In this document: piece by piece, positions 6,369 through 29,338 of the stretch | Layout: every line of letters begins with the position of its first letter | Position numbering within the stretch: position 1 is the first letter of the stretch | DNA from: Thermodesulfobacteriota bacterium | Lineage (GTDB): Bacteria > Desulfobacterota_D > UBA1144 > Nemesobacterales > UBA2774 | Direction of reading: 5' to 3' | NCBI GenBank assembly: GCA_965223335.1 | Contig: OZ244991.1 | Location: forward strand, 1,641,856 to 1,705,855 | Length of the DNA: 64,000 bases | The notes under the pieces: model-generated | The model's database searches: none | The model's input: only the letters and a program-made list of their open reading frames with translations | What the model was told of the DNA's origin: nothing | Made by a program: the position numbers and the translations under genes

Positions 6369-7211
6369 ATGGTGACTACAGGTCAAATGAAATCCGATAT
6401 TCTCATAATTAATACGCTGCTCTTTGCAGTTGTAGCACTTTTTTTAACTACGCAATTTTCCCTTGCAATTACCGATGCCAGGAAAGTAAAGAATGTGGGG
6501 ATTAATGAAAATCTGGGTCAGATTGTTCCGTCCGATATAGAGTTATTAGACGGGGATAACACGAGAGTACAGTTGGGAGACTATCTTGGGGACAAACCCC
6601 TGGTGCTTAACCTTGCTTACTATAACTGCCCGAGGATTTGCTCGTTGGGTACCGACGGTTTGGCCGAGGTTGTGAACTCAACACCTACTTTAAGCGCTGG
6701 AGAGGATTATAATCTGCTCACGGTAAGCTTTGACCCCGAGGACACCCCCCAGGATGCGAAATCCAGGGCATCTAAATATAAATTGAGTGAAGATGATATG
6801 GACTGGAGTTTTTTAGTCGGCAACAGTGCCGAGATTAAGAGACTCACATCTGCGCTTGGGTTTAACTACATGAAGGACGGAGAGGAATTTGCACACCCCT
6901 CCGCTATTTTTGTGCTCACACCAGACGGCGAAATATCACGTTATCTATATGGTATTGAGTACAGCCCAACCGATTTCAAGCTCGCTTTGGTCGAGGCCTC
7001 CGAGGGTGAGATAGGCCCGTCCAAGATAATGAACCAGGTGCTTTTGTTTTGCTACGGATTTGACCCTATAGGCAAGCGGTATGCATTAAAAGCCCTAAAT
7101 GTAGTGAAAGCAGCGGGTGTCGTTACACTTATAAGTCTAGGCGGATTTTTAACGTTTTTTTGGAGACGAGAAAAGAACGATTCTGATAGTTACGGAGGTT
7201 CTAAGGACTGA
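6369..7211 (+). CDS. SCO1/SenC family copper chaperone (thioredoxin fold)
   Basis: N-terminal TM anchor, a CPRIC (CxxxC) copper-binding motif and a downstream conserved His. It is the first gene of the oxidase operon. The start may instead be the Met at 6387. Confidence 0.8.
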   Translation: MVTTGQMKSDILIINTLLFAVVALFLTTQFSLAITDARKVKNVGINENLGQIVPSDIELLDGDNTRVQLGDYLGDKPLVLNLAYYNCPRICSLGTDGLAEVVNSTPTLSAGEDYNLLTVSFDPEDTPQDAKSRASKYKLSEDDMDWSFLVGNSAEIKRLTSALGFNYMKDGEEFAHPSAIFVLTPDGEISRYLYGIEYSPTDFKLALVEASEGEIGPSKIMNQVLLFCYGFDPIGKRYALKALNVVKAAGVVTLISLGGFLTFFWRREKNDSDSYGGSKD

Positions 7212-8152
7212 TGACCTGGATTCCTGAAGTTGCATCTAATCTTGCAGGCAAAGTAGACGGAGTGCTTATGTTTATCACGGCACTTACCCTCGTGTTTTTT
7301 GTTCTTATATCGGTTCTCCTGGTCTATTTTGCAGTAAAGTACAGAAGAAGAAGCGATAATGACGAGACCCCTTATATTACAGGCAACGAGACTCTCGAAA
7401 TCATATGGACACTTGTTCCCACAGTTTTACTGATCTGTATTTTTATCTATGCGTTTGTTGTCTATAAAGATATGCGGACTGTCCCTGCAGATGCAGTAGA
7501 GGTAACCGTTACAGGAAAGCAGTGGTTATGGGAGTTTGAGTACTACAACGGCAAAAAAGACATAAATAGACTTGTAGTCGAACAGAACCGGCCTGTTAGG
7601 ATGGTCATGAGGTCTGATGACGTGCTACACAGCTTCTATGTGCCCGGGTTTAGGGTAAAGCAGGATCTGCTGCCCGGCCGCTACACTCAGCTTTGGTTTA
7701 CACCCACAAAGGTGGGTACGTTCAAACTGTTCTGTGCCGAGTACTGTGGTACTGCACACTCAAACATGCTGGCCGAGGTGGTTGTTATGAGCCCCGAGGC
7801 CTATGATATTTGGGAAAAAGGCGTAGGTGTCGACGACGACGAGGCTGTGGCAGATGCTAAGCCCACTGCAGAGCTGGGCGAGAAGGTATACACACAAAAG
7901 GGTTGTAATGCGTGCCACAGCATTGACGGCAGTGTGGTAATAGGGCCTAGTTTCAAGGGGCTTATAGGTAGGTCCACAACACTTGATGATGGCACTACTA
8001 TTACAGCGGATGAAAACTATATAATGCAGTCGATAATCGAGCCCCAGTCACAGATAGTAGAGGGTTTTCAGCCCATTATGCCGGCGTTTAAAGGCAACAT
8101 TACAGATAAAGAAGTAGATGCATTAATAGCTTATATAAAAACACTAAAGTAA
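7211..8152 (+). CDS. coxB: Cytochrome c oxidase subunit II with a fused C-terminal cytochrome c domain (caa3-type)
   Basis: Two N-terminal TM helices, the CuA site (H..CAEYCG..H..M) and a C-terminal CNACH heme-c binding motif. Its ATG overlaps the sco stop (TGATG). Confidence 0.9.
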   Translation: MTWIPEVASNLAGKVDGVLMFITALTLVFFVLISVLLVYFAVKYRRRSDNDETPYITGNETLEIIWTLVPTVLLICIFIYAFVVYKDMRTVPADAVEVTVTGKQWLWEFEYYNGKKDINRLVVEQNRPVRMVMRSDDVLHSFYVPGFRVKQDLLPGRYTQLWFTPTKVGTFKLFCAEYCGTAHSNMLAEVVVMSPEAYDIWEKGVGVDDDEAVADAKPTAELGEKVYTQKGCNACHSIDGSVVIGPSFKGLIGRSTTLDDGTTITADENYIMQSIIEPQSQIVEGFQPIMPAFKGNITDKEVDALIAYIKTLK

Positions 8153-14491: not shown

Positions 14492-15436
14492 ATGACACAC
14501 TCAACTGCGGGTTCGTTTTTCATCGCTATATTGTATTATGTGCTTATTCTCCCTCAACTGTCGCAGGCCCTCGAAGCTTATAACGGGTTTGATGTCGAAA
14601 ACAGCATTGTACCTAAAAATGAGATATTTTCCGGCGGCCCTCCCAAAGACGGCATCCCTGCTATTTTAAAACCCAAGTTCGAGTCCCCTAAAGATTCGGG
14701 GTGGCTAAAGGACGATGACCTTGTGACAGGGGTCTCTATAAACGGTGAAACACGGGCGTACCCCTTGCGTATCCTGGTTTGGCACGAAGCGGTTAACGAC
14801 ACTGTAGGAGCGCAGCCGATATTGGTCTCTTACTGTCCTCTATGCGGGTCTACTTTAGTGTTCAGCAGGAACATTGATGACGACACCTTTAGTTTCGGGA
14901 TTTCCGGACTCTTGTACCAGTCCGATGTACTCTTCTACGACCACAAGACCGAAAGCCTCTGGTCTCAACTCGAGATGAAGTCCATTGCCGGAAAGATGGT
15001 AGGCACCCGACTCGAGGTGCTGCCCTCTACACTATCTACATGGAGGGAATGGAAAAAAGCACACCCCGACACGCTGGTTCTCAGCAGAGATACAGGGTAC
15101 TCAAGGGATTACAGCACCATGCCCTATGCGGGTTATGAACAATCCACCGCCACTATGTTCCCCGTTAACCACAGCAGCAATAGATACCATCCCAAGGAAA
15201 AGGTTTTAGTGGTGCTTGTGGACGGTGATGCCAAGGCCTATCCCTTTAGTGAACTAAAGAATGCAGAGGCCCCACTCAGTGATAAGATTGGGAATACAGA
15301 TGTAAAAATTCTGTTTGGTGATGGCGACTATGTGACCGCTACTGACAGTAACGGCAATCCCATAGAGTCGTTTGTGTCGTACTGGTTCGCTTGGTACACC
15401 TTCAGGCCCGAGACAGATGTGTACAAGGCCAAGTAA
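14492..15436 (+). CDS. DUF3179-family secreted protein (unknown function)
   Basis: Signal peptide followed by the GGPPKDGIPAI motif that I recognise from DUF3179 proteins. The assignment is from memory of the family signature. Confidence 0.5.
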   Translation: MTHSTAGSFFIAILYYVLILPQLSQALEAYNGFDVENSIVPKNEIFSGGPPKDGIPAILKPKFESPKDSGWLKDDDLVTGVSINGETRAYPLRILVWHEAVNDTVGAQPILVSYCPLCGSTLVFSRNIDDDTFSFGISGLLYQSDVLFYDHKTESLWSQLEMKSIAGKMVGTRLEVLPSTLSTWREWKKAHPDTLVLSRDTGYSRDYSTMPYAGYEQSTATMFPVNHSSNRYHPKEKVLVVLVDGDAKAYPFSELKNAEAPLSDKIGNTDVKILFGDGDYVTATDSNGNPIESFVSYWFAWYTFRPETDVYKAK

Positions 15437-15540
15437 CTTAGCTCGTTACCTATAAATCCAACAAAAATCAGACAAGTGCGGTATAATTTTTCTACTCCGA
15501 GCGGTTAAAAATTCATACGATTAAACAAAGGGAACAAAAC

Positions 15541-15825
15541 ATGAACAATAAAAGTTATATGGCATTATTCATAAAAAATCTCTTTAGGAAAGATACTGTA
15601 GTGCGTGCGATCAAAGTGATGATGATCGTCGCCCCTATACTCATCCTGATCAACCATCACGACCACATTATTGCACGTGAGTTCTCACATAAATTCTATA
15701 TGAAGTCTTTGCTTACACTGTTTGTCCCATACTGCGTATCGGCTTATTCATCTGCCAGTGCATACACCGCAGATGAGATTGCCAAACTCAATAATCCGAG
15801 CTCTTCCCAGCCGGTAGGTGTGTAA
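15541..15825 (+). CDS. Small hypothetical membrane protein (94 aa)
   Basis: One hydrophobic segment (VMMIVAPILILI) followed by a HHDH stretch. I recognise no family. Coding status rests only on the ORF and the intergenic context. Confidence 0.35.
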   Translation: MNNKSYMALFIKNLFRKDTVVRAIKVMMIVAPILILINHHDHIIAREFSHKFYMKSLLTLFVPYCVSAYSSASAYTADEIAKLNNPSSSQPVGV

Positions 15826-15839
15826 AGATTTGGTGAGTA

Positions 15840-16793
15840 TCACGAGGAGGGATTATCTTTCTTTGTCTGCTCGTTTAAGTGCCAGTCATAGTGCAGATAA
15901 CCTAGTTTAAAATCGTTTTTCTCAAGAAATTGCACGTCGTATTCTGAAGAAATATTTGTTAGCACAAAACTAAGAACCGATTTATCCTTTAAGCTTCGGC
16001 CCGCGAACTGATCGGTCTCGCCATAAGTGGCAATAAAGTCTTCACCGAACCATTTGAAAATCTTAGACACTTTTACTTGTTTCGTTTTCGGATTCACATA
16101 AACTCCTTTCGATGGGTTATTAACGAAGTTTTTAGATGCGTCCACTAACTGGACTTCCAGCTTATCCCCTGTGTAGGCCTCGTCTCTTAGGTCTGGGCAC
16201 CCGATTGAGGCACAGTTGATGGCTGCGTGGATTCGCGGTTCATTGAACTTCTTTCTAAGTATCTCGTGCTCTATCTCCCCCAGCGTGACCATGTTGCCCA
16301 TTGCCCTGAACTGTAGCTTGTCCCATATGCCTCTTATCTGCCGGATGCTGTTTGAGGGGGCTGTGATCCCGAGTAACGTGAGGCTCCTTTTAATTGGATA
16401 ATTGTCTATGATCGCAGCCAGCGTAAATGCATTATATGCGTTTATCCAATAGGCAATTTGCTCGGATTCCGTCCATTTGTTGTAGTCATCGGGCGAGACC
16501 TCACCCAGCGTGCGCATATATGCCTGTAATTGTTCCCGTGATAGTTGTAGCCCACGATAATCGACCCTGCTCGCTTTAACAAATCGTTCCAATATAGAAT
16601 CGAATTGCTCGTGTGTCTGGTCAAATTCCTTAATATCACTGTTCTCCAATGCGTAGGATACAATTGTATAAGCATTGCTCTGGTGATTTTGAGATAATGA
16701 ATATGCGACTGCTAGCAGTGCAATGATTATTGCTACTGATATTTGGTAAGATATGTGATTCCAGAATTTCGCGATTCGTAGCAAGCGACCCAT
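15840..16793 (-). CDS. DUF547 domain protein (secreted or membrane-anchored)
   Basis: N-terminal TM/signal segment and the AYWINAYNAF motif characteristic of DUF547. Confidence 0.55.
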   Translation of the reverse strand: MGRLLRIAKFWNHISYQISVAIIIALLAVAYSLSQNHQSNAYTIVSYALENSDIKEFDQTHEQFDSILERFVKASRVDYRGLQLSREQLQAYMRTLGEVSPDDYNKWTESEQIAYWINAYNAFTLAAIIDNYPIKRSLTLLGITAPSNSIRQIRGIWDKLQFRAMGNMVTLGEIEHEILRKKFNEPRIHAAINCASIGCPDLRDEAYTGDKLEVQLVDASKNFVNNPSKGVYVNPKTKQVKVSKIFKWFGEDFIATYGETDQFAGRSLKDKSVLSFVLTNISSEYDVQFLEKNDFKLGYLHYDWHLNEQTKKDNPSS

Positions 16794-16854
16794 AATAACT
16801 GTTAGATGGACCCTATTTACTAAGGATTCAAATCTATATTCCTATACGAACCAT

Positions 16855-17337
16855 TTAGGGGTTCGGATTCGGTACAGTTATAGGTGGCTGAGTTGGAGGT
16901 GGCTGTGTAGGTATCGGCCGTGTGGGTGGTGGGCGTCTTGTCGGAGGCACGGGTGGATTAGTCGGTGGTAGAGGTGGGTTTGTAGGCGGTACGGGCGGGT
17001 TGGTGGGAGGATTGGGCGGATTCGTAGGGGGAGGTGCAGTTCGGAAATCATTTTGAGCATCCGGCGGTTCTTGATTGTACGGAGGCTCGGGGTCCGGGAC
17101 TCTTGGGATAGGTGCACGGAGCAGAATTTCCATAACATTTAGCAGATCAGGGTTATCGCGTACCGAATTTATCCTATCAATCGCACCCATATCGAGATCT
17201 ATCTGTTCGTCTGTGGTCCATGAGTTGTTTAAAGCTCCCGCTATCATATGCGGCGATGAAATAAGCAGCACTGCAATTATCATGAATAGCAACGATCTTA
17301 GCGGTTTTAATTTGTTCATTTTATTGAATACTTTCAT
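16855..17337 (-). CDS. Secreted proline-rich repeat protein (P-T-N-P-P-x-P-P tandem repeats)
   Basis: Signal peptide (LLFMIIAVLLISSPHMIAGA). The C-terminal half is almost pure PTNPPxPP/PTQPP repeats. The start is taken at the ATG at 17337; the track's first codon is GTG. The gene directly follows the TPR outer-membrane protein gene, with 1 nt between them. Confidence 0.6.
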   Translation of the reverse strand: MKVFNKMNKLKPLRSLLFMIIAVLLISSPHMIAGALNNSWTTDEQIDLDMGAIDRINSVRDNPDLLNVMEILLRAPIPRVPDPEPPYNQEPPDAQNDFRTAPPPTNPPNPPTNPPVPPTNPPLPPTNPPVPPTRRPPPTRPIPTQPPPTQPPITVPNPNP

Positions 17338-17344
17338 AACCACC

Positions 17345-18658
17345 TCAATAACTCAGGAATAATGACCATGTGATGATGTGACGGTCATATTCTAGCACTC
17401 TGTAAGTTGAGTCCTCGTTTGTAAAACTGTATGACATTGCCGCGTATATCGGTCCCGAGATATTACGTGTCAGCATCGCAAGGAAGTTGATCCTGTCGGT
17501 TTTCCTATCTCTTGGACCCTGGAAATCTGGGTATTTTTCTCTGCCGTACTCACCATTAATATCTGCTCTAATAGCCCAAAACAACGGTGCAGATATTCCG
17601 CCCCTTAACCTGTGGCCGTTAAAATTAAAGTTGAGTCCATCGGCGTTATTGTGCTGGAACTCGTACCCAAGCCACACATTTAGTGCACGCTCCATAAAAA
17701 AGAAGTACTGTAACAAACCAACACTGTTATTTACAGCATCACGTGACGAGATTGCGGGATCAAACCCCTCGTCCTCAAAATCATCATAGGCAAACCTGTA
17801 AAACGGTATTGTTAGGGTGTTGGGTGTGAACGCTGTATTTAGTGATGCGGTAATAGAGTGCGAGTTGCTAAACCTGTCATAATCGAGCAGTGCATAGTTA
17901 AAGTTATAGTTTAGTGTCGGGGAAAACGGTTTGCCGAATAGTGTGGTTGTGTAGTTAATGTATGGTGAAACGTTGAATGTAGATAGATTGAAATCTCTAA
18001 GTTCTCGTTTGGTATGTTGGCTCTGGTAGGTGTTGAAATTGGCACCCAGCACCCAATTCCCTAGGTTAGTGGTTCGTAACCCCAGGTTTAGGTACTCGGT
18101 GAACCTGAATGACTCGTCTTCGGTAAATGCCGCCCCACTGCCGTTTGGGTTTTCCGGCACATTGAAATCGAGTTGGGGTGCAATTTGTAGGAATACGTTA
18201 TAGAATCTGGGGCCACCGGGTCTCTCGAACTCGGTCTGCTGTTGTTCAATGGCCTCGACATACTTTCCTGCCCACTTCGCGTATAGAGATTCCGGGGCTA
18301 GCGTTTTTACCTTGTCAAAAAGCGCACGCGCCATATCGGTCTGGCTGATTTTGAAATATGTAGATGCCTTATAATAGATTATCGGTACGTTTTCGGGGTC
18401 TATCTTAAGCGCTTTATCATAAGTTTCGAGTGCCTTTTGATAGTTTTCCAGCCTGTGATAAGAAAGTCCGATATATCTTAATATTAGAGGGGCCTGGTCA
18501 GGGTATTGCTCAAGTAGAGTTGTGAATTCTGTTATCGCCTTATTATAATCACCGGATTTAAAGGCCTTCCCGGCTTCTGTATCTACTATATTAAGCTCTG
18601 CAAAAGCCGCGGGGGTAATCAGCGAGAGAATGAAAAATGTGTATATGAGTATCCGCAT
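17345..18658 (-). CDS. TPR-repeat outer-membrane beta-barrel protein
   Basis: Signal peptide MRILIYTFFILSLITPAAFA at an internal Met, so the track ORF is trimmed by 50 codons. Next come about 3 TPR motifs, then an aromatic- and Gly-rich region of alternating residues ending in ...WSLFLSY. A terminal aromatic residue is typical of outer-membrane barrels. Confidence 0.6.
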   Translation of the reverse strand: MRILIYTFFILSLITPAAFAELNIVDTEAGKAFKSGDYNKAITEFTTLLEQYPDQAPLILRYIGLSYHRLENYQKALETYDKALKIDPENVPIIYYKASTYFKISQTDMARALFDKVKTLAPESLYAKWAGKYVEAIEQQQTEFERPGGPRFYNVFLQIAPQLDFNVPENPNGSGAAFTEDESFRFTEYLNLGLRTTNLGNWVLGANFNTYQSQHTKRELRDFNLSTFNVSPYINYTTTLFGKPFSPTLNYNFNYALLDYDRFSNSHSITASLNTAFTPNTLTIPFYRFAYDDFEDEGFDPAISSRDAVNNSVGLLQYFFFMERALNVWLGYEFQHNNADGLNFNFNGHRLRGGISAPLFWAIRADINGEYGREKYPDFQGPRDRKTDRINFLAMLTRNISGPIYAAMSYSFTNEDSTYRVLEYDRHIITWSLFLSY

Positions 18659-18896
18659 ATCTTCATTTTTGATGTTACTTCCGAGGATTATATAATTTTT
18701 TGTGTCTGCTTGCAAATGGATATTAGAATTAATATCCTCTCTAATTAAGCAAGCAATATGTAGTATTAAGTTGCTGGAATATGGCTTGCATCGGATTGTT
18801 ATTTGCATAATTATCCGCCTGAGTAATGAGAAGAGGCTGTGTATATTTCCTCCTCAAAACTATTTCAAATAGTTAGTAGTTGTTAAGGGAGTAAAG

Positions 18897-18918
18897 GTTC
18901 ATTACAACTGTAATGAAC
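18897..18918. promoter_or_regulatory. Perfect palindrome GTTCATTACA-AC-TGTAATGAAC (operator-like)
   Basis: A 10-bp perfect inverted repeat with a 2-nt spacer, about 240 nt upstream of the TPR outer-membrane protein gene. Read in the gene's sense it supplies TGAACC-N15-ACTAC, which has the -35 but not the -10 of the island's ECF motif. Confidence 0.35.
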
Positions 18919-18971
18919 TCTGATTCTAGCGGGTTATATGTAGAAATGTGTGGAATAGTTAATTCCTATTG

Positions 18972-19787
18972 CTATGAAAAGGCCTGATTTAATCTCTCAA
19001 TTTGCTCATCGGACAGGTGCCAGCCCGAGCCCCCGCAATTCTCAACAGTGCGCTCAACGCTGTTGGATTTCGGTATGGATACTACATTTGGATGGGAATT
19101 GCACCAGTTTAGAGAGACCTGTGCCATAGTCCTGCCAGTCTCTTTTGCAATGTCCTCAAGCACCTGCATTTTGCTGCTTACCCTGATTCGTGGTTTCTTG
19201 CAAAGCCGCCCGTCATCAAGGGGGGTATACGCGAGGATTGTTATGTTGCTCTTCTCGCAAAATGGTATTAAGTCTGTTTCTATGCCGCGGCTGTTTAGGT
19301 TGTAGAGGACCTGATTTGAGACTATCGGATGGTGGTTAAGATAGTGCATAGCGTTTAATAGTTCGTCTGTGTCGAAATTGCTCACACCCAGATATTTAAC
19401 CAGGCCCCGGTCGGCCAGTTTCTCTAAAGCTCGCATCGTATCCTGCAGAGGGTAGGTGTAATTGGGCCAGTGGATCTGATAGAGATCAATATAATCAGTA
19501 CCTAGTCGATACAAGCTGTCCTCGCATGCTCTCAATACATCATCATGTGCAAGGTGTCTGCCTGAGACCTTCGTTGCTAAAAACACGTCATCACGAATAC
19601 CTTTAATTGCTTCTCCTACCACGTCTTCAGTGTGATAACCCTCGGCAGTGTCTATGAGACTTGCACCCAGTTTTATCCCCTCTCTTAGAGTCTCTGCACC
19701 ACCCCGGTACCTCCATGTGCCGAGCCCGATCTCAGGGATCATAATCCCGGTATTACTTAGTTCTTTATGGTTCATCTCTGTACTCAT
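18972..19787 (-). CDS. Aldo/keto reductase family oxidoreductase
   Basis: AKR fold signatures (GLGTW, IDTAEGY, LGVSNF). Confidence 0.8.
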   Translation of the reverse strand: MSTEMNHKELSNTGIMIPEIGLGTWRYRGGAETLREGIKLGASLIDTAEGYHTEDVVGEAIKGIRDDVFLATKVSGRHLAHDDVLRACEDSLYRLGTDYIDLYQIHWPNYTYPLQDTMRALEKLADRGLVKYLGVSNFDTDELLNAMHYLNHHPIVSNQVLYNLNSRGIETDLIPFCEKSNITILAYTPLDDGRLCKKPRIRVSSKMQVLEDIAKETGRTMAQVSLNWCNSHPNVVSIPKSNSVERTVENCGGSGWHLSDEQIERLNQAFS

Positions 19788-19868
19788 AATTATGATTCTT
19801 AAATATATGATAATAAATTCTTATAGGTTTGAATACAGAGGGAATGTAGTAGTCGCAAGATATATATT

Positions 19869-19903
19869 AAAAACGGGGCTGTCTGTGAATTTAGACAACC
19901 CCG
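19869..19903 (-). terminator. Rho-independent terminator after the choice-of-anchor-Q gene
   Basis: 11-bp stem CGGGGCTGTCT/AGACAACCCCG with one mismatch and an 8-nt loop, followed on the minus strand by a TTTTT run. It starts 13 nt after the stop codon. Confidence 0.6.
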
Positions 19904-19915
19904 TATAGTCTCATT

Positions 19916-21223
19916 TTATGCTTCAATTTCATTTCTCCTCATCAGTCTTCTAGTTAATATCAAAGCAGGAATTAGAAGATAGAGAGGAAAAGCTGTAGAG
20001 GTTGTATTGGTTGCCAGTGAACATCCACCGCCACTTTCGCTTACGGCACCAAATACGTGCTCAACGGCACCCATATCACAGATCGAAAACCCATTACCGT
20101 CCCCGTCCTGCGGCCTTGCGGTGCCTCTTTGGTCGGTCCCGTTACATTCTGCCGGGTTATCGGCGCTATCAATAGCAGGGCTCCCTTCCAGTATCCCGTG
20201 TGTCATAGTGGGGCCGCCGTTATCTGCAAGTATGCCGATCATTGGGTTTGTGTTGGGCATATCAGTCGGGTCTATGAGGTTGCATAAAGTTGTGGAAATA
20301 TTGTTTCCATCCGACTGGATAAATATTCCACCGCAATCACTTGTGATGTTATTGGCAATTATACTACCCCATACTGAAGTCATACTTCCAGCTGCCTGAT
20401 AGATACCTCCGGCTGAACCAGATACGGTTATGTTAGATGCAATCGTTGTAAACTTTATGTCGAGCTCGGAGTCGTTATAAATTCCACCACCTAGGTCGGT
20501 TGCAGCGTTATTGCTTATAGTGACGTTCCTAAGTGTTAGAGCCCCACGGTTGTAAATACCGCCTCCCCTCTCATCACCAGGGTCTCCGGCAGTAATATTG
20601 TTGTCGATCACTGATTCAACAATTGTCCCTTCGGCATCAGGGCCGATATATATGCCTGCGCCTCTGGGAGCCATATTGCCTGTAATTGCTACCGTCTCGA
20701 GTACCACAATTTCAGCTGCATTTCTTATGGCACCACCGGCATTTCCCGAGTTGGCATTCGTGATCGTTAGGTCATAGAACTCAACCGTAATTTGATTTAA
20801 ACCATCACCATCTAAAAGATGGAAGATCTGCTTGGAGCCGTTTCCGTCGATAATCGTGGACTTAGTGCCTGATCCTTGGATAATGAGGTCATCTCTTATA
20901 TCCAGATCACCAACTGCTGCGAAGTTGTCCCCGCCCTCTAGTGTAAGGACATACGTCCCAGCGGGTATTGCTATCGTATCCTGACCCGCAAGATCGTTTG
21001 TTTCCATCACCGCAGCACGAAGTGTGCAGTTCCCGGCCCCGTCGTCACAAAGTGTATCACCCGGTGTATCATCGGGTGTGTCAATGTTGCTGTTTACAAC
21101 AAACATCACAGCATGTGAATGAGTTGCTCCTATCATCACTGATAGAGCAAATACTAAAAGCAACATGCCTCGTGCTATGTGCGAAGCATCAAAATCTTTA
21201 ATGCTCTCGAATAAGTTAATCAT
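19916..21223 (-). CDS. Secreted right-handed beta-helix protein with a choice-of-anchor-Q-like domain and a C-terminal sorting/anchor-like tail
   Basis: Start at MINLFESIK, RBS AAGGAGG. The track's upstream Met would contain the promoter motif. The protein has a signal peptide and a Gly/Asn-rich region of NxTxxxN beta-helix-like repeats. Its C-terminal block (LADNGGPT..GSPAID..C..TDQRG..RPQDGDGNG..CDMGAVE) matches what I recall of the choice-of-anchor Q domain. The tail is GGGC, a hydrophobic helix, then RRLMRR. Confidence 0.6.
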   Translation of the reverse strand: MINLFESIKDFDASHIARGMLLLVFALSVMIGATHSHAVMFVVNSNIDTPDDTPGDTLCDDGAGNCTLRAAVMETNDLAGQDTIAIPAGTYVLTLEGGDNFAAVGDLDIRDDLIIQGSGTKSTIIDGNGSKQIFHLLDGDGLNQITVEFYDLTITNANSGNAGGAIRNAAEIVVLETVAITGNMAPRGAGIYIGPDAEGTIVESVIDNNITAGDPGDERGGGIYNRGALTLRNVTISNNAATDLGGGIYNDSELDIKFTTIASNITVSGSAGGIYQAAGSMTSVWGSIIANNITSDCGGIFIQSDGNNISTTLCNLIDPTDMPNTNPMIGILADNGGPTMTHGILEGSPAIDSADNPAECNGTDQRGTARPQDGDGNGFSICDMGAVEHVFGAVSESGGGCSLATNTTSTAFPLYLLIPALILTRRLMRRNEIEA

Positions 21224-21259
21224 GGTTAATTCCTCCTTTAAAGCAAGTTTGAATGGTGA

Positions 21260-21285
21260 GTAACAATATGCGAGGTAAAGGTTCA
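21260..21285 (-). promoter_or_regulatory. ECF-type promoter TTGAACC-N15-GTTACTCAC (gene sense) for the CoA-Q beta-helix gene
   Basis: One of five copies of the same motif with identical spacing. Its -10 lies 36 nt upstream of the ATG. Confidence 0.6.
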
Positions 21286-21307
21286 ATATGTAACATATAT
21301 AATATAT

Positions 21308-21342
21308 AAAAAGCCCCTGGAGCTTTCATACTCCAAGGGCTT
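21308..21342 (-). terminator. Rho-independent terminator after the Cys-rich exoprotein gene
   Basis: 12-bp stem AAGCCCCTGGAG/CTCCAAGGGCTT with one mismatch and an 8-nt loop, followed on the minus strand by TTTTTATATA. Confidence 0.6.
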
Positions 21343-21379
21343 CTCTGTAAAGTCGAGTCTAACTTAAGGACTGTATTAA

Positions 21380-22216: not shown

Positions 22217-22252
22217 GGTTAATTCCTCCTTGAAATCGTATTTGTACAGTGT

Positions 22253-22278
22253 GTAACAACAAAGGCGTAGATGGTTCA
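22253..22278 (-). promoter_or_regulatory. ECF-type promoter TTGAACC-N15-GTTACACAC for the Cys-rich exoprotein gene
   Basis: Second copy of the motif. Its 5' UTR and first codons are nucleotide-level homologous to those of the CoA-Q gene. Confidence 0.6.
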
Positions 22279-22353
22279 AAAAAATGATGATTAACCTAGA
22301 TAGAGTTACATAAGACCTTGCTTTCAAGACTGTGCCATAGATCAATACAAGAA

Positions 22354-22386
22354 CCCCGGTCTAGATTGGGAGTTTCCAGACCGGGG
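22354..22386 (-). terminator. Terminator hairpin after the CARDB-like gene
   Basis: 9-bp GC-rich stem CCCCGGTCT/AGACCGGGG with a 15-nt loop, followed on the minus strand by TTCTTGTATTG. Confidence 0.45.
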
Positions 22387-22430
22387 CAGGTTGGGGTATA
22401 GGAGGTGTGTATGAGATGCACACATTATTT

Positions 22431-22991: not shown

Positions 22992-23024
22992 TCCAAACTC
23001 CTTTCAATTGATTTTGTATAGTAA

Positions 23025-23050
23025 GTAACGCGGGAGGTGGAAAAGGTTCA
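23025..23050 (-). promoter_or_regulatory. ECF-type promoter TTGAACC-N15-GTTACTTAC for the CARDB-like gene
   Basis: Third copy of the motif. Its -10 lies about 30 nt upstream of the ATG at 22991. Confidence 0.6.
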
Positions 23051-23067
23051 AAATTTTTTTGAGCAGA

Positions 23068-23095: not shown

Positions 23096-23105
23096 TTGAA
23101 AAGAT

Positions 23106-26138: not shown

Positions 26139-26171
26139 TTTATTCCTCCTCAATGTTTGTTTGATAGGTAA

Positions 26172-26298: not shown

Positions 26299-28023
26299 TC
26301 AGTTGGCTCTGGCTTCTTCGGTGCCTTCATTTAATAAGTTCAATGCACCCAAAGCGTCTATTCTGCCTTTACCGTATTCGTTATCCTTTCCGGGTTTACC
26401 CAAGTCAAGCGCACTTTGCGTAAGGAGGTATTTAACCTCAGTCGAGGTGAGAGCCGGGTTTTGCTGCAGAAGTAGTGCAATAGCACCTGTGACGTGGGCT
26501 GCCGCCATAGAAGTGCCCGAGGTTAGATGCCACTTATTACCTGGTGCAGGGCAGTAGATCTCCACCCCAGGTGCCGAGAGATCTATGTATGATCCTCTGG
26601 TCGATGAACGGTATAGATTATCTTTGGCATCCGTCGCAGTCACAGCTATGACTTCTCCCAAAGCCGCCGGATACACAGTCTTACCATTCTTACCACCATT
26701 ACCCGCAGCGGCTACAACAATGACTCCTTTTTCTACCGCTTTCCTGATCATTTTAGCGATTAGATGATCTTTCGGGCCGCCAAGGCTGAGGTTTATAACC
26801 TGAGCACTGTTTAAGATCGAATAATCAATTGATTTTGCAAGTGAAGTACTGCTGCAAATTGTATTTTTAGCCTCTGTTGAGTCTGACCAGCATGCCCTCA
26901 CGGAAATGATATCAACATCGGGTGATATGCCGAGTGCACCTGTACCGTTGTTAGGAGTAGATGCAATAATCCCGGCGATTGATGTGCCGTGCAGTTCATC
27001 TGTAAAACTCCCGTTGCCTTTGTCCACAAAATCCCTTCTCAGTTTTACCGCATTACTGAGTGCACTGTGATTATAATCTACACCGGTATCAATGACGGCC
27101 ACTCTTACCCCGTTTCCTGTCGAAATTCTGTGAGCCTTATCGGCGTTGATCTTATTCACACCATACTGGATTGAACTGGTTGCGAGCCCTTCGTATAGAT
27201 ACACAGGCTGGGTCGCTAACACACGAGCATCATCAATAAGTGAGGTAATCACAACCGGGACTGTTCTAGAATCCGGGATGTTATATACGACTAGCACAGC
27301 ATTGATGCTGTTTAATCTATAAGCTTCCCTTAGAGTCAGCTCATTTTTACTTCCTATTTCAGTTGCTGTGCTCCGAGCATTCGGGCTGTCTTCTATAAGT
27401 ATCAATACCTGATCGGGTATATAACCGTCCTTTGCTATTCCGGACAAAGTTTCGGGGGTCGGATCCTTAAACACGGGGGCGGTGAGTTGTTCCTGCTCTA
27501 TAACAGGCTCAATCAAAGTTGGGTCGTCCGGCAATTGAGTAGGTGATGTAAACTGGGGATCAGGGACTACGGGATTAATCCCCGAGGTCGGGTCGGGGTC
27601 AGAAGACCCAGGTTGATTACTCGGGGTTTCAGGCTCAGGTACCGGGGGTAGGGGGTTTGTGGGTTGAGTGGTGTCAGGATTCCTGGGAGGCTTCGGGTTG
27701 TCAGGTCTCGGGGGCTTAGGTTCATTCGGAGGAAGCACAATATCTTGGCTCGGAAGATTCGGTATTGTCGGTGGTTTGTTCGGGGGTTGAGGATATGTAG
27801 GCCCCGAATTGCTAGGGTTTCGGTTAGGATTAGGTTTCGGCGGTGTAGGCAGGTCATCACCCACATTAGGACTATAGCTGCTAGGGTATCGTGGTATTGG
27901 CTTTGATGAGTTGGACTGAGCAACCACAATAGCCTCTGCAGTTAAATTCAAGGCGAGCGCATTTGAATAACCGCTCAGAGCTATTAAAAGTGCTGCCGTT
28001 ACAGTTGCTGTGATAGCTCTCAT
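26299..28023 (-). CDS. Secreted S8 subtilisin-like serine protease with a roughly 120-aa proline-rich N-terminal region
   Basis: Signal peptide, catalytic triad motifs VAVIDTGVD (Asp), HGTSIAGII (His) and GTSMAAAHVTG (Ser), and a PxxP-rich low-complexity N-terminal region. It sits 35 nt downstream of the anti-sigma gene with no promoter motif between them. Confidence 0.85.
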   Translation of the reverse strand: MRAITATVTAALLIALSGYSNALALNLTAEAIVVAQSNSSKPIPRYPSSYSPNVGDDLPTPPKPNPNRNPSNSGPTYPQPPNKPPTIPNLPSQDIVLPPNEPKPPRPDNPKPPRNPDTTQPTNPLPPVPEPETPSNQPGSSDPDPTSGINPVVPDPQFTSPTQLPDDPTLIEPVIEQEQLTAPVFKDPTPETLSGIAKDGYIPDQVLILIEDSPNARSTATEIGSKNELTLREAYRLNSINAVLVVYNIPDSRTVPVVITSLIDDARVLATQPVYLYEGLATSSIQYGVNKINADKAHRISTGNGVRVAVIDTGVDYNHSALSNAVKLRRDFVDKGNGSFTDELHGTSIAGIIASTPNNGTGALGISPDVDIISVRACWSDSTEAKNTICSSTSLAKSIDYSILNSAQVINLSLGGPKDHLIAKMIRKAVEKGVIVVAAAGNGGKNGKTVYPAALGEVIAVTATDAKDNLYRSSTRGSYIDLSAPGVEIYCPAPGNKWHLTSGTSMAAAHVTGAIALLLQQNPALTSTEVKYLLTQSALDLGKPGKDNEYGKGRIDALGALNLLNEGTEEARAN

Positions 28024-28058: not shown

Positions 28059-28751
28059 TTAATAGCCCTCAGTGGCTGATTTAATTATTTCGGTATTCGC
28101 ACTAAGTTCTTGAATGGTATCGGCTGCTTGCTCGTCAGGTTCTAGCTCTATTACATATAAACCACCCGCTTTCGGTCCATCCACAATTTTTCCCCTGATT
28201 TCCTCAAGCACCTCTCCTATAGCTTCTATGCTAGCGTCTTCTTGAAACACAACCAACAACTTTGGCCCGGCAGTTTGCACTAGCTCTGTATCTCCGCTTA
28301 AGACCTTGTAATCATTGGTCTCCTCGGGTGTGCCGAAGTAAAGTTTGCCTGCAAGCAGAGCGATCAACCCAAACTGCACAAGCAGTATGGCCATGGCCCC
28401 TGCGGGTATTGCGGTGGGTAATGATATAGCCGGCATCAAGTTTTTTATACTTGACCAAATGGTTTCGGTTTCTTCATCTCTGGCGTAGCTGACATCGGTG
28501 TCTGTTTCTTCGATCCTCTGCATAATGCTTTCTTCCATATTCTCGAACTCGGCAGATATCTCTTTATCCACAAGCTCATTGGTTTCCATAACTGCTTCCC
28601 TTATAACCTCGAGTCCTATGATCTCAGAGCTGCACTCTTCGCATTCGTGGATGTGCTCTGTAACAAGTGCTTTTTCTTCTGTGTCCAATGTACCGTTTAG
28701 GTACCATGGCAAAAGCAGGCTGATCTCTTCATGTGTAGTATTGTTGGTCAT
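28059..28751 (-). CDS. Anti-sigma factor, ZAS-type (zf-HC2, HxxxCxxC), single-pass membrane protein
   Basis: EHIHECEEC motif near the N-terminus, one TM helix (AGAMAILLVQFGLIALLAGKL) and a C-terminal extracytoplasmic domain. Its ATG overlaps the sigma-factor stop (ATGA). Confidence 0.7.
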   Translation of the reverse strand: MTNNTTHEEISLLLPWYLNGTLDTEEKALVTEHIHECEECSSEIIGLEVIREAVMETNELVDKEISAEFENMEESIMQRIEETDTDVSYARDEETETIWSSIKNLMPAISLPTAIPAGAMAILLVQFGLIALLAGKLYFGTPEETNDYKVLSGDTELVQTAGPKLLVVFQEDASIEAIGEVLEEIRGKIVDGPKAGGLYVIELEPDEQAADTIQELSANTEIIKSATEGY

Positions 28752-29338
28752 TGCAGTGTCTCCTCTGTGGTTATTCCCAATCCTGTAAGTTTTTCTTTCA
28801 ATTTTTCTTTTGCGTAATACATTCGGGTCTTCACAGTGTTTACAGGGCAGTCCATTATCTCGGCAATTTCAGGGTATGATAGCCCCTCATAGAATGTAAG
28901 CTCGAGTACCGTCCTGTGTTCGGGGGAAAGTTGTTCCAGAGCTATTTTCATGCGCTCTGCTCTATCTTTTTTCTCCACGATTTCCTCCACGTTATCTTCC
29001 GACGCAGGGATCCGTGAAAACTCCTCGGGGTCCATTGCAGTCGGCGATTTTTTTCTCAGTTCGTTCATTGTTTTGTTGTGTGCTATACCGAAAATCCATG
29101 TAAGCACCTTTGATTTCCCTTTAAAGTTTTTGGCACTGTTCCAGACCTCAAACATTACATCGTTTGTGATCTCTTCGGTCATTTTGTTGTCTTTTGTTGT
29201 CTTATAAACAAACGAAAAGACCTGCCGAACGTATTTTTGATAAAGGGTTTTAAACGCCTCTTTATTGCCGTTTGCGATTTCCTCTATCAGTTCCAAATCC
29301 GAAGGTTCCAAAACCCTCTCCATTATCTCTGGCCTCAC
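28748..29338 (-). CDS. ECF (group 4) sigma-70 family RNA polymerase sigma factor
   Basis: A 196-aa protein with sigma region 2 (FKTLYQKYVRQVFSFVYK..) and region 4 (LEQLSPEHRTVLELTFYEGLSYPEIAEIM). It is translationally coupled to the anti-sigma gene. Confidence 0.85.
   Translation of the reverse strand: MRPEIMERVLEPSDLELIEEIANGNKEAFKTLYQKYVRQVFSFVYKTTKDNKMTEEITNDVMFEVWNSAKNFKGKSKVLTWIFGIAHNKTMNELRKKSPTAMDPEEFSRIPASEDNVEEIVEKKDRAERMKIALEQLSPEHRTVLELTFYEGLSYPEIAEIMDCPVNTVKTRMYYAKEKLKEKLTGLGITTEETLQ

What the first reader, a model, noticed from the sequence alone, without database searches (positions are those of the whole stretch)
16855..18918. Bicistronic TPR outer-membrane-barrel and proline-repeat protein pair preceded by a perfect 22-bp palindrome containing the regulon -35
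A gene for a roughly 440-aa protein with a signal peptide, N-terminal TPRs and a C-terminal aromatic-terminated barrel (...WSLFLSY) is followed 1 nt later by a gene for a secreted protein that is half PTNPPxPP repeats. The TPR-barrel architecture is typical of exopolymer or secretion porins, for example the PgaA, BcsC and PelB classes, though much smaller here. The pair may therefore be a porin with its substrate or tether. About 240 nt upstream lies GTTCATTACA-AC-TGTAATGAAC. Read in the gene's sense this gives TGAACC-N15-ACTAC: the island's -35 consensus with a degenerate -10, embedded in a perfect inverted repeat. It may be a regulator-binding operator or a weak, cross-talking ECF promoter.
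Basis: partly seen in the sequence, partly recalled or inferred. Interest (0 to 1): 0.55.

Follow-up and report, generated by a model that had tools for sequence, protein, structure and literature searches.

The report
Slam-like outer-membrane barrel with proline-rich partner
Two tightly coupled genes encode an outer-membrane channel distantly related to the Slam / type 11 secretion proteins and a small secreted, mostly disordered proline-rich protein that always accompanies it; the pair is probably a translocon with its own cargo or tether, and the upstream "palindrome" is mainly a conserved alternative-sigma promoter, not a demonstrable operator.

Summary
The sequence features are real. Gene A (17345..18658, minus strand, 437 aa) has a signal peptide, three TPRs and a C-terminal barrel ending in FLSY. 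Gene B (16855..17337, 160 aa) starts 7 nt after A's stop (1 nt if the GTG is used). It has a signal peptide, a 65-aa conserved head and a 61-aa Pro-rich tail.

The AlphaFold2 model of A (pLDDT 88.9) has 14 strands. Its nearest solved folds are the 14-stranded OmpG and CymA, not the 16-stranded polysaccharide porins. Homologs 36-38% identical across the whole barrel pass Pfam's threshold for SlipAM/DUF560, the Slam / type 11 secretion barrel. The window protein itself does not.

B follows A in every relative with downstream sequence. Partners in very distant lineages keep an N-terminal motif ([IV]DxxxGA[IF]E) ahead of a disordered tail. B lacks the 8-stranded barrel of canonical Slam cargo.

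TGAACC-N15-ACTAC is the orthologous, conserved variant of the island's ECF promoter (TGAACC-N15-GTTAC, five perfect copies). A σ70-like promoter lies nearer the gene. The palindrome's upstream arm is unique to this genome. It sits 54 nt after an aldo-keto reductase gene inserted only here, and it is no rarer than chance.

Verdict: a new variant of a known kind, of moderate interest.

The parts
17345..18658 (-). Gene A: outer-membrane protein of 437 aa plus stop. It has a signal peptide, a 3-TPR periplasmic domain and a 14-stranded barrel.
   Evidence: ORF. TPR Pfam hits. AF2 model with pLDDT 88.9. About 30 full-length homologs. Start at ATG 18658 deduced.
18599..18658 (-). Signal peptide of A (MRILIYTFFILSLITPAAFA, cleaved after AFA).
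   Evidence: Read from the sequence. Equivalent AxA sites occur in the orthologs.
18227..18598 (-). Periplasmic TPR domain of A (residues ~21-144): seven helices, i.e. 3 TPRs plus a capping helix.
   Evidence: Pfam TPR_1/2/16/19. TPR_Slam is weak in the window protein (24.7 bits against a cut-off of 35.2) but matches 24 of 29 homologs. AF2 helices.
17348..18202 (-). C-terminal beta-barrel of A (residues ~153-437): 14 strands, ending in FLSY. The most conserved motifs are DEGFDPxISSRD, ADGLNF and YPDFQGPRDR, which fall between strands 7/8, 9/10 and 11/12.
   Evidence: AF2 strands. Invariant columns. Top fold matches are OmpG and CymA. Barrels of homologs pass the SlipAM gathering score.
16855..17337 (-). 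Gene B: secreted protein of 160 aa plus stop. The start is ATG 17337; GTG 17343 is an alternative.
   Evidence: Present directly after A in 14 related loci.
17340..17346 (-). Shine-Dalgarno-like GAGGTGG overlapping A's stop codon, suggesting translational coupling of A and B.
   Evidence: Sequence. The equivalent in relatives is TGAGGTAAAATTATG.
17236..17337 (-). Signal peptide of B (34 aa, ...PHMIAG|A).
   Evidence: Read from the sequence. Distant partners have canonical AxA sites: VRA|Q, AWA|Q, ALA|M.
17041..17235 (-). Conserved head of mature B (residues 35-99), with motifs IDLDMGAID and PPYNQEPPDAQNDFR. Two short helices are predicted.
   Evidence: Alignment A7. Motif specificity. Single-sequence AF2 model, at low confidence.
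16858..17040 (-). Pro-rich tail of B (residues 100-160; PTNPPxPP repeats; no predicted secondary structure).
   Evidence: The tail sequence and repeat unit differ between orthologs.
18876..18901 (-). Variant ECF-type promoter TGAACC-N15-ACTAC, ~195 nt upstream of A's start codon measured from the -10.
   Evidence: The orthologous sites have TGAAC and AC-T-A invariant in 7 loci.
18897..18918 (.). Inverted repeat of 10+2+10 nt, GTTCATTACA-AC-TGTAATGAAC. The arm nearer gene A contains 5 of the 6 bases of the -35.
   Evidence: The RNA hairpin folds at -10.7 kcal/mol, z = -2.96. The upstream arm is not conserved.
18687..18715 (-). Proximal sigma-70-like promoter TTGCAA-N17-TATAAT, ~30 nt upstream of A's start codon.
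   Evidence: 10 of 12 matches. Relatives carry TTGAAT-N17-TAGTAT at the equivalent place, followed by GAGGAGGA and a GTG start.
18972..19787 (-). Aldo-keto reductase gene. It is context only: an insertion between the choice-of-anchor-Q gene and gene A found only in this genome. Its stop lies 54 nt upstream of the palindrome.
   Evidence: Pfam Aldo_ket_red, E = 3e-55. No tblastn match in any of the related loci searched (L001-L010), whereas the flanking genes match.

Best explanation
Genes A and B are a translationally coupled two-gene module.

A is an outer-membrane protein built like the Slam / type 11 secretion (DUF560/SlipAM) translocons. It has a Sec signal peptide, a ~125-aa periplasmic domain of three TPRs and a 14-stranded barrel. 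It belongs to a large, mostly unannotated sister branch of that family.

B is exported by Sec and cleaved. Mature B has a short conserved head (IDLxxGAI...PPYNQEPPDAQxDFR) followed by a 60-90-residue Pro-rich tail that is probably an extended polyproline-II chain. The tail sequence drifts freely between species.

Inferred mechanism. A is the dedicated outer-membrane translocon or anchor for B. The conserved head is recognised by A's TPR domain or by the conserved loops of its barrel. The unfolded tail passes through the barrel and is exposed at the cell surface, either released as cargo or left threaded as a tether.

Regulation. In this lineage the module sits at the distal end of an ECF-sigma-controlled island of secreted proteins. 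A conserved, weaker variant of the island promoter (TGAACC-N15-ACTAC) and a proximal sigma-70-like promoter both lie upstream of A.

The palindrome. It is specific to this genome. A 10-nt stretch complementary to the -35 region lies just downstream of an inserted aldo-keto reductase gene. At most it is a weak 3' hairpin for that transcript. There is no evidence that it is an operator.
For: Shown:
- Architecture: signal peptide, TPRs and a C-terminal aromatic residue. The AF2 model has pLDDT 88.9, seven helices and then 14 strands. The best solved folds are the 14-stranded OmpG and CymA (TM-score on the target 0.53-0.66). BcsC and PelB align only with rmsd 13-15 A.
- Link to SlipAM: the barrels of P0023, P0024 and P0026 are 36-38% identical to the window barrel over its full length. 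They score 38.0, 30.9 and 28.8 bits against PF04575, whose gathering score is 22. For P0023 and P0026 the match is collinear over model positions 49-276 of 288; for P0024 it covers 106-276. TPR_Slam matches 24 of 29 and 43 of 86 family members.
- Family size: a barrel-only profile finds 2995 representatives at E <= 1e-3 and 1537 at E <= 1e-10. Nearly all of the best 150 carry the barrel at the C-terminus, mostly behind a ~150-250-aa N-terminal region. Every member scanned has TPR hits, and most have no Pfam hit on the barrel.
- B follows A in 14 related loci. It also follows A in three loci where A is only 33-39% identical and the neighbouring genes differ. One of these, L013, carries an A protein that is SlipAM-positive by Pfam's own cut-off.
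- In still more distant loci, L015 (Thioalbus denitrificans) and L017, the downstream secreted protein carries IDRETGAFE or VDRALGGLE just after its signal peptide and is otherwise low-complexity.
- The motif [IVL]D...G[AGS][ILFV][ED] occurs 11 times in 194,000 six-frame residues. Ten of those hits are in the gene-B position.
- B has no Cys and no Pfam domain. Only two short helices are predicted.
- Promoters and palindrome.

From the literature: Slam and type 11 secretion proteins are defined by a TPR N-terminal domain plus a 14-stranded DUF560 barrel and often sit next to their cargo (PMC5449769; PMC8406197). Pro-Thr repeat regions occur in predicted type 11 cargo, and marine 'cluster 3' systems lack canonical cargo (10.1101/2024.09.26.615229).
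Against: - The window protein itself gives no PF04575 hit at E <= 1. The link to SlipAM is transitive.
- Only 12 of 86 representatives hit SlipAM, while 13 of 86 hit BBP2_2. In the four barrels examined individually, the BBP2_2 matches covered only the last ~65-95 residues.
- B lacks the C-terminal 8-stranded barrel common to all predicted Slam cargo, and it is not a lipoprotein.
- No physical A-B interaction was tested.
- Translocation, surface exposure and the direction of threading are inferred only.
- One distant locus (L016) has a disordered downstream protein without a clear motif.
- The ECF-type site leaves a ~200-nt leader, much longer than at the five perfect promoters. L004, L009/L002/L020 and L021/L022 lack a clear copy.
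Confidence: 0.55

Rival explanations
1. A is a Slam-like translocon whose real cargo are the island's other secreted proteins: the S8 protease, the 1015-aa protein, the CARDB proteins, the possible lipoprotein p321 and the choice-of-anchor-Q protein. B is a periplasmic accessory subunit (adaptor, plug or chaperone-like partner bound to the TPR domain), not cargo.
For: Every Dadabacteria / Thermodesulfobacteriota locus that extends upstream of A carries part or all of the gene order ECF sigma, anti-sigma, S8, 1015-aa, CARDB, p321, choice-of-anchor-Q, A, B. The island genes carry TGAACC-N15-GTTAC promoters. All island proteins have signal peptides, and p321 has a lipobox-like FASC.
Against: In loci where A is 24-39% identical the island is absent but the B-like partner remains. 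None of the island proteins has a recognised TbpB-like or lipoprotein-C barrel.
Confidence: 0.2
2. A is an ordinary substrate-specific or general diffusion channel. B is a functionally separate envelope protein, for example a Pro-rich periplasmic spacer, and the two are co-transcribed for reasons other than transport of B.
For: The nearest solved folds are the diffusion channels OmpG and CymA. The window barrel has no significant hit to any secretion family.
Against: Gene order and start/stop coupling are kept down to ~25% identity of A. The partner keeps a specific N-terminal motif. A periplasmic TPR domain is not a feature of diffusion porins. The most conserved residues lie between strands 7/8, 9/10 and 11/12, where surface loops of ordinary porins are the most variable parts.
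Confidence: 0.12
3. A is a small exopolysaccharide export porin of the PgaA/BcsC/PelB class.
For: It has the TPR-plus-barrel architecture. Foldseek lists BcsC and PelBC among its significant matches. NCBIfam PgaA and BcsC give weak hits on the TPR part only (E = 0.005-0.011).
Against: The model has 14 strands, not 16. There are 3 TPRs rather than a long superhelix. The PgaA and BcsC scores are 15 and 14 bits against cut-offs of 367 and 858. No synthase or glycosyltransferase operon is linked in any of about 20 loci. PMC8406197 separates the 16-stranded PgaA-like proteins from the 14-stranded type 11 family.
Confidence: 0.05
4. The 22-bp palindrome is an operator for a dimeric regulator that occludes the -35 of the ECF-type promoter of gene A.
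For: The arms are perfect 10-bp repeats overlapping TGAAC. The closest clade (L003) shares the outer GTTCAT...TGAAC at the same 22-nt span.
Against: The upstream arm is absent from every other relative. About 0.8 such repeats are expected per window by chance. No second copy exists in the window. No regulator gene is adjacent. The arm lies at the edge of the reductase insertion found only in this genome.
Confidence: 0.1

Closest known systems
Slam / type 11 secretion outer-membrane proteins (Pfam SlipAM PF04575 = DUF560, with TPR_Slam PF24575), e.g. Neisseria Slam1/2, Xenorhabdus NilB and HrpB
   Same: Sec signal peptide, a periplasmic TPR N-terminal domain of ~125-140 aa and a 14-stranded C-terminal barrel. 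The gene sits next to a gene for a Sec-exported partner. Homologs 36-38% identical pass the PF04575 gathering score (PMC5449769, PMC8406197).
   Different: The window protein does not itself hit PF04575. The partner is a non-lipidated, largely disordered Pro-rich protein with a conserved N-terminal motif, not a protein with a C-terminal 8-stranded TbpB-like or lipoprotein-C barrel. The hosts are Dadabacteria / Thermodesulfobacteriota and, for more distant members, records named Omnitrophota. There is no TonB or TonB-dependent receptor linkage.
Marine 'cluster 3' type 11 systems (10.1101/2024.09.26.615229)
   Same: These are DUF560-type proteins from environmental bacteria that rarely sit next to canonical barrel-domain cargo, which suggests other targeting domains.
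   Different: Those systems co-occur with DUF1194 proteins. Here the constant neighbour is the motif-plus-disordered-tail protein, and no DUF1194 protein was found.
Synthase-dependent exopolysaccharide porins PgaA, BcsC and PelB
   Same: A periplasmic TPR domain fused to an outer-membrane barrel.
   Different: They have 16 strands, long TPR superhelices and operons with synthases and modifying enzymes. None of these is found here.
OmpG and CymA (14-stranded monomeric channels)
   Same: They are the best solved structural matches to the barrel.
   Different: Sequence identity is only 10-13% in the structural alignments. They have no TPR domain and no dedicated partner gene.
RcsF threaded through OmpA/C/F, and type Va autotransporter linkers
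   Same: Conceptual analogy only: a disordered segment of one polypeptide occupies the lumen of an outer-membrane barrel, so that one end is exposed at the surface.
   Different: No homology. RcsF is a lipoprotein loaded by BamA. Autotransporters carry passenger and barrel in one chain.
ECF (group 4) sigma-dependent promoters with autoregulated sigma/anti-sigma operons
   Same: A GAAC-containing -35, fixed spacing and a short -10. A perfect copy lies upstream of the sigma gene itself.
   Different: The gene-A site has ACTAC (nCTAC in relatives) in place of GTTAC and leaves a ~200-nt leader.

Membership tests
Slam / type 11 secretion OMP (SlipAM, DUF560) | Sec signal peptide and outer-membrane beta-signal (C-terminal aromatic residue) | tested here: met
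   MRILIYTFFILSLITPAAFA|E at the N-terminus and ...SLFLSY at the C-terminus.
Slam / type 11 secretion OMP (SlipAM, DUF560) | Periplasmic N-terminal domain of ~140 aa containing TPRs (PMC5449769, PMC8406197) | tested here: met
   TPR_1/2/16/19 hits at residues ~30-130. AF2 gives 7 helices at residues 29-144. TPR_Slam scores 24.7 bits in the window protein (below the cut-off of 35.2) but matches 24 of 29 homologs.
Slam / type 11 secretion OMP (SlipAM, DUF560) | 14-stranded C-terminal barrel | tested here: met
   The AF2 model (pLDDT 88.9) has 14 strands between residues 154 and 437. The top PDB folds are the 14-stranded OmpG and CymA. This is a prediction, not an experimental structure.
Slam / type 11 secretion OMP (SlipAM, DUF560) | Significant match of the barrel to Pfam PF04575 | tested here: inconclusive
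   The window barrel has no hit at E <= 1. The barrels of P0023, P0024 and P0026 (36-38% identical over 100% of the window barrel) score 38.0, 30.9 and 28.8 bits against a gathering score of 22, spanning model positions 49-276 of 288 for P0023 and P0026. In all, 4 of 29 and 12 of 86 family members hit. Homology is therefore transitive.
Slam / type 11 secretion OMP (SlipAM, DUF560) | Neighbouring cargo with a C-terminal 8-stranded barrel (TbpB-like or lipoprotein C), often a lipoprotein | tested here: not met
   B has no Cys, no Pfam or NCBIfam domain and no predicted strand. No such domain was found in the island proteins.
Slam / type 11 secretion OMP (SlipAM, DUF560) | OMP-dependent surface display or secretion of the partner | not testable with these tools
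   This needs a translocation assay, for example co-expression in E. coli with protease shaving.
Exopolysaccharide porins PgaA/BcsC/PelB | 16-stranded barrel behind a long TPR superhelix | tested here: not met
   14 strands and 3 TPRs. BcsC and PelBC align with rmsd 13-15 A.
Exopolysaccharide porins PgaA/BcsC/PelB | Family HMM match (NCBIfam TIGR03939 PgaA, NF008520 BcsC) | tested here: not met
   15.1 bits against a cut-off of 366.65, and 13.6 bits against 858. Both hits are on the TPR part only.
Exopolysaccharide porins PgaA/BcsC/PelB | Operon with polysaccharide synthase or modifying enzymes | tested here: not met
   None adjacent in the window or in about 20 related loci.
Pfam BBP2_2 (PF10082, putative beta-barrel porin 2) | Full-length match to the family model | tested here: not met
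   Only partial matches to the C-terminal part of the model (within positions ~291-376 of 378), at or below the gathering score: 24.5, 23.8, 20.0 and 18.9 bits against 23.7.
The island's ECF-sigma promoter (TGAACC-N15-GTTAC) | -35 TGAACC and a 15-nt spacer | tested here: met
   18901->18896 followed by a 15-nt spacer. The spacer, TTTACTCCC..., resembles TTTACCTCC at the other sites.
The island's ECF-sigma promoter (TGAACC-N15-GTTAC) | -10 GTTAC | tested here: not met
   The site has ACTAC, so only TAC is shared. Orthologous gene-A sites have GCTAC, CCTAC, GATAC or CCAC, so the variant is conserved rather than decayed.
The island's ECF-sigma promoter (TGAACC-N15-GTTAC) | Conservation at the orthologous position | tested here: met
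   TGAAC and AC-T-A are invariant columns in 7 loci, and the site is also present in L018. It is absent or unclear in L004, L009/L002/L020 and L021/L022.
The island's ECF-sigma promoter (TGAACC-N15-GTTAC) | Transcription start dependent on the island's sigma factor | not testable with these tools
   This needs 5'-RACE or in vitro transcription.
Intrinsic terminator (reading the palindrome as the reductase gene's terminator) | G+C-rich stem followed by a U-tract | tested here: not met
   The stem is A+U-rich, folds at -10.7 kcal/mol, and is followed by CUUUACUCCC. The terminator scan did not list it, although it found the GC-rich terminators of the neighbouring genes.
Operator palindrome | Conservation of both half-sites in orthologous regions, or recurrence within the regulon | tested here: not met
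   The upstream arm is absent in relatives. It is the only copy in the window.

The most novel reading that the evidence does not exclude
The A-B pairs define an unrecognised branch of the Slam / type 11 secretion superfamily. This branch is widespread in environmental bacteria beyond the classical Proteobacteria (Dadabacteria / Thermodesulfobacteriota, with distant members in records named Omnitrophota and in Thioalbus). In this reading its dedicated cargo is an intrinsically disordered protein, Pro-rich or otherwise low-complexity. The cargo is recognised through a short N-terminal motif ([IV]DxxxGA[IF]E) instead of the canonical C-terminal 8-stranded barrel, and it is threaded through the 14-stranded barrel to form a surface-exposed polyproline brush or tether.
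Probability: 0.3. Interest if true: 0.7.

Novelty: new variant of a known kind. Interest (0 to 1): 0.5.

Why it matters
Type 11 secretion is the most recently named secretion system, and its rules for choosing cargo are known only for host-associated Proteobacteria. There, a C-terminal 8-stranded barrel targets the cargo.

A large sister family that Pfam does not cover, with a different and strictly linked partner type, would widen both the taxonomic and the mechanistic scope of the system. It would also give a simple two-gene model for asking how a 14-stranded barrel handles an unfolded chain.

The surrounding island is a clean, comparatively validated ECF regulon in an uncultured phylum. It has five perfect promoters and one conserved weaker variant, which makes it useful for studying promoter-strength tuning.

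The palindrome itself is of little consequence.

Tried and rejected
- afdb50 fold search: the library was unavailable.
- Exact-protein look-up of P0001: not on record.
- Cluster look-up of P0001 and P0055: no names or accessions.
- Full-length profile against PDB sequences: swamped by TPR proteins. The barrel-only profile found nothing at E <= 10, so no Slam-family structure could be used.
It was repeated with 15 sequences.
- Homolog search with B's head: found only itself. B is often uncalled or miscalled, so orthologs were taken from the loci.
B alone, as a single sequence, gave a low-confidence model.
- Metagenome scan with A: only one extra relative.
- Rfam on 15000-30000 at E <= 0.1: nothing, so there is no known RNA element in the long leader.
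- TonB-like role for B: rejected. It has no TonB C-terminal domain and its signal peptide looks cleavable.
- Inner-membrane-anchored B: considered unlikely, because distant partners have canonical AxA cleavage sites.
- BBP2_2 or DUF2860 membership: rejected, because the matches are partial and at or below threshold.
- The ACTACTA shared by the regions upstream of the reductase gene and of gene A, as a possible insertion scar: noted but not interpretable.


Full report
**What is there.** Both genes lie on the minus strand.

Gene A is the ORF 17345..18808. Its sensible start is ATG 18658, which gives MRILIYTFFILSLITPAAFA|ELN... and 437 aa. The public annotation (P0001, 487 aa) starts at 18808 and puts 49 residues in front of the signal peptide. 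My first translation began one codon early, so residue numbers in the AF2 output are one higher than the true numbers.

Gene B ends at 16855. In all relatives, however, an ATG follows the stop by 9 nt (TGAGGTAAAATTATG). In the window an ATG at 17337 follows by 7 nt, with GAGGTGG overlapping the stop codon. The database entry for B (P0055) is 160 aa, which matches that start. Either way the two genes are translationally coupled.

The inverted repeat (arms 18897-18906 and 18909-18918) and the string TGAACC-N15-ACTAC (18901->18876) are exactly as described.

**Gene A: a TPR domain and a 14-stranded barrel.**
- Pfam finds only TPR families (residues ~30-130) and a sub-threshold TPR_Slam match.
- NCBIfam hits to PgaA and BcsC fall on the TPR part only. 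They score 15 and 14 bits against cut-offs of 367 and 858.
- An AlphaFold2 model built from 29 homologs is confident (mean pLDDT 88.9). It has seven helices (three TPRs plus a cap), a short low-confidence linker and then 14 beta-strands running to the C-terminal FLSY.
- Foldseek against the PDB ranks the 14-stranded OmpG and CymA first (TM-score on the target 0.53-0.66). BcsC and PelBC appear only with rmsd 13-15 A.
- No solved structure matches the barrel by sequence.

**The link to Slam / type 11 secretion.**
- About 30 full-length homologs exist, all from metagenomes or MAGs. Three of them (P0023, P0024, P0026) are 36-38% identical to the window barrel over its full length.
- Their barrel parts alone score 38.0, 30.9 and 28.8 bits on Pfam SlipAM (PF04575 = DUF560; gathering score 22). 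For P0023 and P0026 the match runs collinearly over model positions 49-276 of 288; for P0024 it covers 106-276.
- BBP2_2 and DUF2860 give only partial matches at or below threshold.
- The window barrel itself gives no hit.
- A barrel-only profile read against 1.84 billion representatives finds 2995 proteins at E <= 1e-3 and 1537 at E <= 1e-10. Nearly all of the best 150 carry the barrel at the C-terminus, mostly behind a ~150-250-aa N-terminal region.
- Of 86 representatives scanned, all have TPR hits, 43 hit TPR_Slam, 12 hit SlipAM and 13 hit BBP2_2. Sources call them 'tetratricopeptide repeat protein' or 'hypothetical'.

Slam and type 11 proteins are defined in the literature by a TPR N-terminal domain of ~140 aa plus a 14-stranded DUF560 barrel, and the 16-stranded PgaA-like proteins were explicitly set apart from them (PMC5449769; PMC8406197). 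Gene A therefore has the Slam architecture. It belongs to a large sister branch that Pfam mostly does not cover and that grades into DUF560. It is not a PgaA/BcsC/PelB-type porin.

**Gene B: the constant partner.**
- B has a signal peptide (...PHMIAG|A), a 65-residue head and a 61-residue tail of PTNPPxPP-like repeats. It has no Cys and no domain hits.
- A single-sequence AF2 model is weak (pLDDT 64). It predicts only two short helices in the head and no structure in the tail.
- tblastn and ORF extraction find B directly after A in L001-L010, L018, L020 and L021. The head is conserved: xIDLxxGAIExxDSVxxNPDLLxVxExLLRAP...PPYNQ[EQ]PPDAQxDFR. The Pro-rich tail differs in both repeat unit and length.
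- One public record calls the antisense Gly-rich ORF in place of B. This helps explain why a protein search found only B itself.
- In three loci where A is only 33-39% identical and the neighbouring genes are unrelated, the next gene again encodes a signal peptide, then IDLAMNAIE, IDVTLGALE or VDIALNALE, then PPYKQ[EQ]PPAAQxDFR, then a Pro-rich tail. One of these A proteins, P0026, is SlipAM-positive by Pfam's own cut-off.
- In still more distant loci the downstream secreted protein carries IDRETGAFE (Thioalbus denitrificans, L015) or VDRALGGLE (L017) just after the signal peptide and is otherwise low-complexity. A third locus, L016, has a long acidic disordered protein without a clear motif.
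Ten of those hits are in the B position.

A-B is therefore an autonomous, co-inherited module. What is conserved in B is a short N-terminal element. The rest is a disordered chain of drifting sequence.

**Mechanism (inferred).** A periplasmic TPR domain is a peptide-binding module. A 14-stranded barrel of OmpG size could pass an unfolded chain. Between A's strands, the most conserved motifs (DEGFDPxISSRD, ADGLNF, YPDFQGPRDR) lie where ordinary porins are the most variable, which suggests gating or contact loops.

My best reading is that A captures B's head and passes or holds the Pro-rich tail across the outer membrane, so that B is either released cargo or a threaded tether. Pro-Thr repeat segments are already noted in predicted type 11 cargo, and marine cluster 3 systems lack canonical cargo.

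I give this reading about 0.55.

The main rival (0.2) is that B is an accessory subunit and the cargo are the island's secreted proteins. A plain porin with an unrelated neighbour (0.12) and an exopolysaccharide porin (0.05) are less likely.

**The island and its promoters.** Upstream on the same strand lie:
- an ECF sigma (28748..29338);
- a zf-HC2 anti-sigma whose outer domain resembles a subtilase prodomain (28059..28751);
- an S8 protease;
- a 1015-aa protein;
- a CARDB protein;
- a 321-aa protein;
- a choice-of-anchor-Q protein.

The related loci keep this order as far as their sequence extends upstream, ending in A-B.

Five perfect copies of TGAACC-N15-GTTAC lie on the minus strand, with -35 first bases at 29385, 26197, 23050, 22278 and 21285. 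Only 0.035 are expected by chance. The first precedes the sigma gene itself. GC-rich terminators separate the island's downstream genes.

The site before gene A has a perfect -35, the same spacing, a similar C/T-rich spacer and ACTAC in place of GTTAC. At the orthologous position, just after the preceding gene's terminator, relatives have TGAAC[CT]-N15/16-(G/C/A)(C/A)TAC-T(C/A)A. TGAAC and the AC-T-A of the -10 are invariant columns in 7 loci.

The variant is therefore a conserved, presumably weaker member of the regulon, not a decayed copy. Where it is missing (L009/L002/L020), A directly follows a gene that carries a perfect promoter.

A second conserved element is a sigma-70-like promoter ~30 nt before the start codon: TTGCAA-N17-TATAAT at 18715..18687 in the window, and TTGAAT-N17-TAGTAT in relatives. 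Rfam finds nothing in the ~200-nt leader.

**The palindrome.** The aldo-keto reductase gene (18972..19787) has no tblastn match in any of the related loci searched, where A follows the choice-of-anchor-Q gene or a CARDB gene. It is therefore an insertion specific to this genome.

The palindrome begins 54 nt after the reductase stop. Its downstream arm is the conserved -35 region. Its upstream arm is found in no relative; L003 shares only GTTCAT.

As RNA it folds into a 9-bp A+U-rich hairpin of -10.7 kcal/mol (z = -2.96) without a U-tract. The terminator scan does not list it.

Perfect 10+10 repeats with a short spacer are expected 0.83 times per shuffled window and occur at three loci here.

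It may serve as a weak 3' hairpin for the reductase transcript or may be fortuitous. Nothing supports an operator, and I give that reading about 0.1.

**Verdict.** It is wrong about the class of barrel, and its operator idea is unsupported. The pair is best filed as a new variant within the Slam / type 11 secretion superfamily with a non-canonical, disordered partner. Interest is moderate, at 0.5.

Noticed in passing
window, minus strand; -35 first bases at 29385, 26197, 23050, 22278, 21285: Five perfect ECF-type promoters, TGAACC-N15-GTTAC, against 0.035 expected by chance. One precedes the ECF sigma gene itself, which suggests autoregulation. The others precede the 1015-aa, CARDB, 321-aa and choice-of-anchor-Q genes. 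The same motif recurs at the same genes in L001-L010.
   Followed up: partly
window 28059..28751 (-) and 26299..28023 (-): The zf-HC2 anti-sigma factor has a C-terminal domain that matches the fervidolysin (subtilase) N-terminal prodomain (Pfam E = 4e-4, 21.2 bits against a cut-off of 21). It is followed directly by an S8 subtilase gene. This may be a protease-sensing or protease-cleaved anti-sigma switch.
   Followed up: no
window 18972..19787 (-): The aldo-keto reductase gene has no match in any of the related loci searched. It was inserted between the choice-of-anchor-Q gene and gene A, inside an otherwise syntenic island. The string ACTACTA occurs both upstream of the reductase gene (~19850) and at the -10 of gene A.
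   Followed up: partly
window 18687..18715 (-): A near-consensus sigma-70-like promoter, TTGCAA-N17-TATAAT, lies ~30 nt upstream of gene A's start. It is conserved as TTGAAT-N17-TAGTAT in relatives. Gene A therefore probably has two promoters.
   Followed up: partly
window 19916..~20030 (-), C-terminus of the choice-of-anchor-Q protein: The C-terminus reads ...SESGGGCSLATNTTSTAFPLYLLIPALILTRRLMRRNEIEA: a Gly/Cys motif, a hydrophobic helix and a basic tail. This is a sorting signal of the GlyGly-CTERM or MYXO-CTERM kind. NCBIfam gives rhombotarget A at E = 2e-9 and choice_anch_Q at E = 5e-20.
   Followed up: no
window 21286 and 22345 (listed TTG starts); 18808 (annotated start of P0001): Mechanical or annotated start codons overlap the promoters or precede the signal peptide. 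The true starts are probably ATG 21223 (MINLFESIK...), an ATG about 43 codons into the 321-aa ORF (MINLSRFESMK...) and ATG 18658 for gene A. The 5' regions of the 321-aa and choice-of-anchor-Q genes share '...KEELTMINL', so they look duplicated.
   Followed up: partly
L001 7557..7820 (-) (= BQJP01000008.1): The public annotation calls a Gly-rich antisense ORF (87 aa) in place of the gene-B ortholog (7303..7836, +). Pro-rich genes of this family are therefore under-represented in protein databases.
   Followed up: yes
L010 9998..11889: The gene A and gene B orthologs in this MAG (JAWKQD010000013.1) are broken into several tblastn segments or frames. This could be pseudogenisation or assembly errors.
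   Followed up: no
window 7030 (+): A single TGAACC-N15-GCTAC match lies on the plus strand inside the ORF 6369..7211. It is probably chance, since 0.5 relaxed matches are expected per window.
   Followed up: no
L007, L008 (record titles 'uncultured Spirochaetia bacterium'): Two MAGs labelled Spirochaetia carry the same island, with 64-65% identity in gene A to the Dadabacteria / Thermodesulfobacteriota loci. This suggests mislabelled bins.
   Followed up: no
window 26299..28023 (-), N-terminal part of the S8 protease: The protease also carries a Pro-rich segment after its signal peptide (...PTPPKPNPNRNPSNSGPTYPQPPNKPPTIPNL...). Pro-rich linkers therefore recur among the island's secreted proteins.
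   Followed up: no
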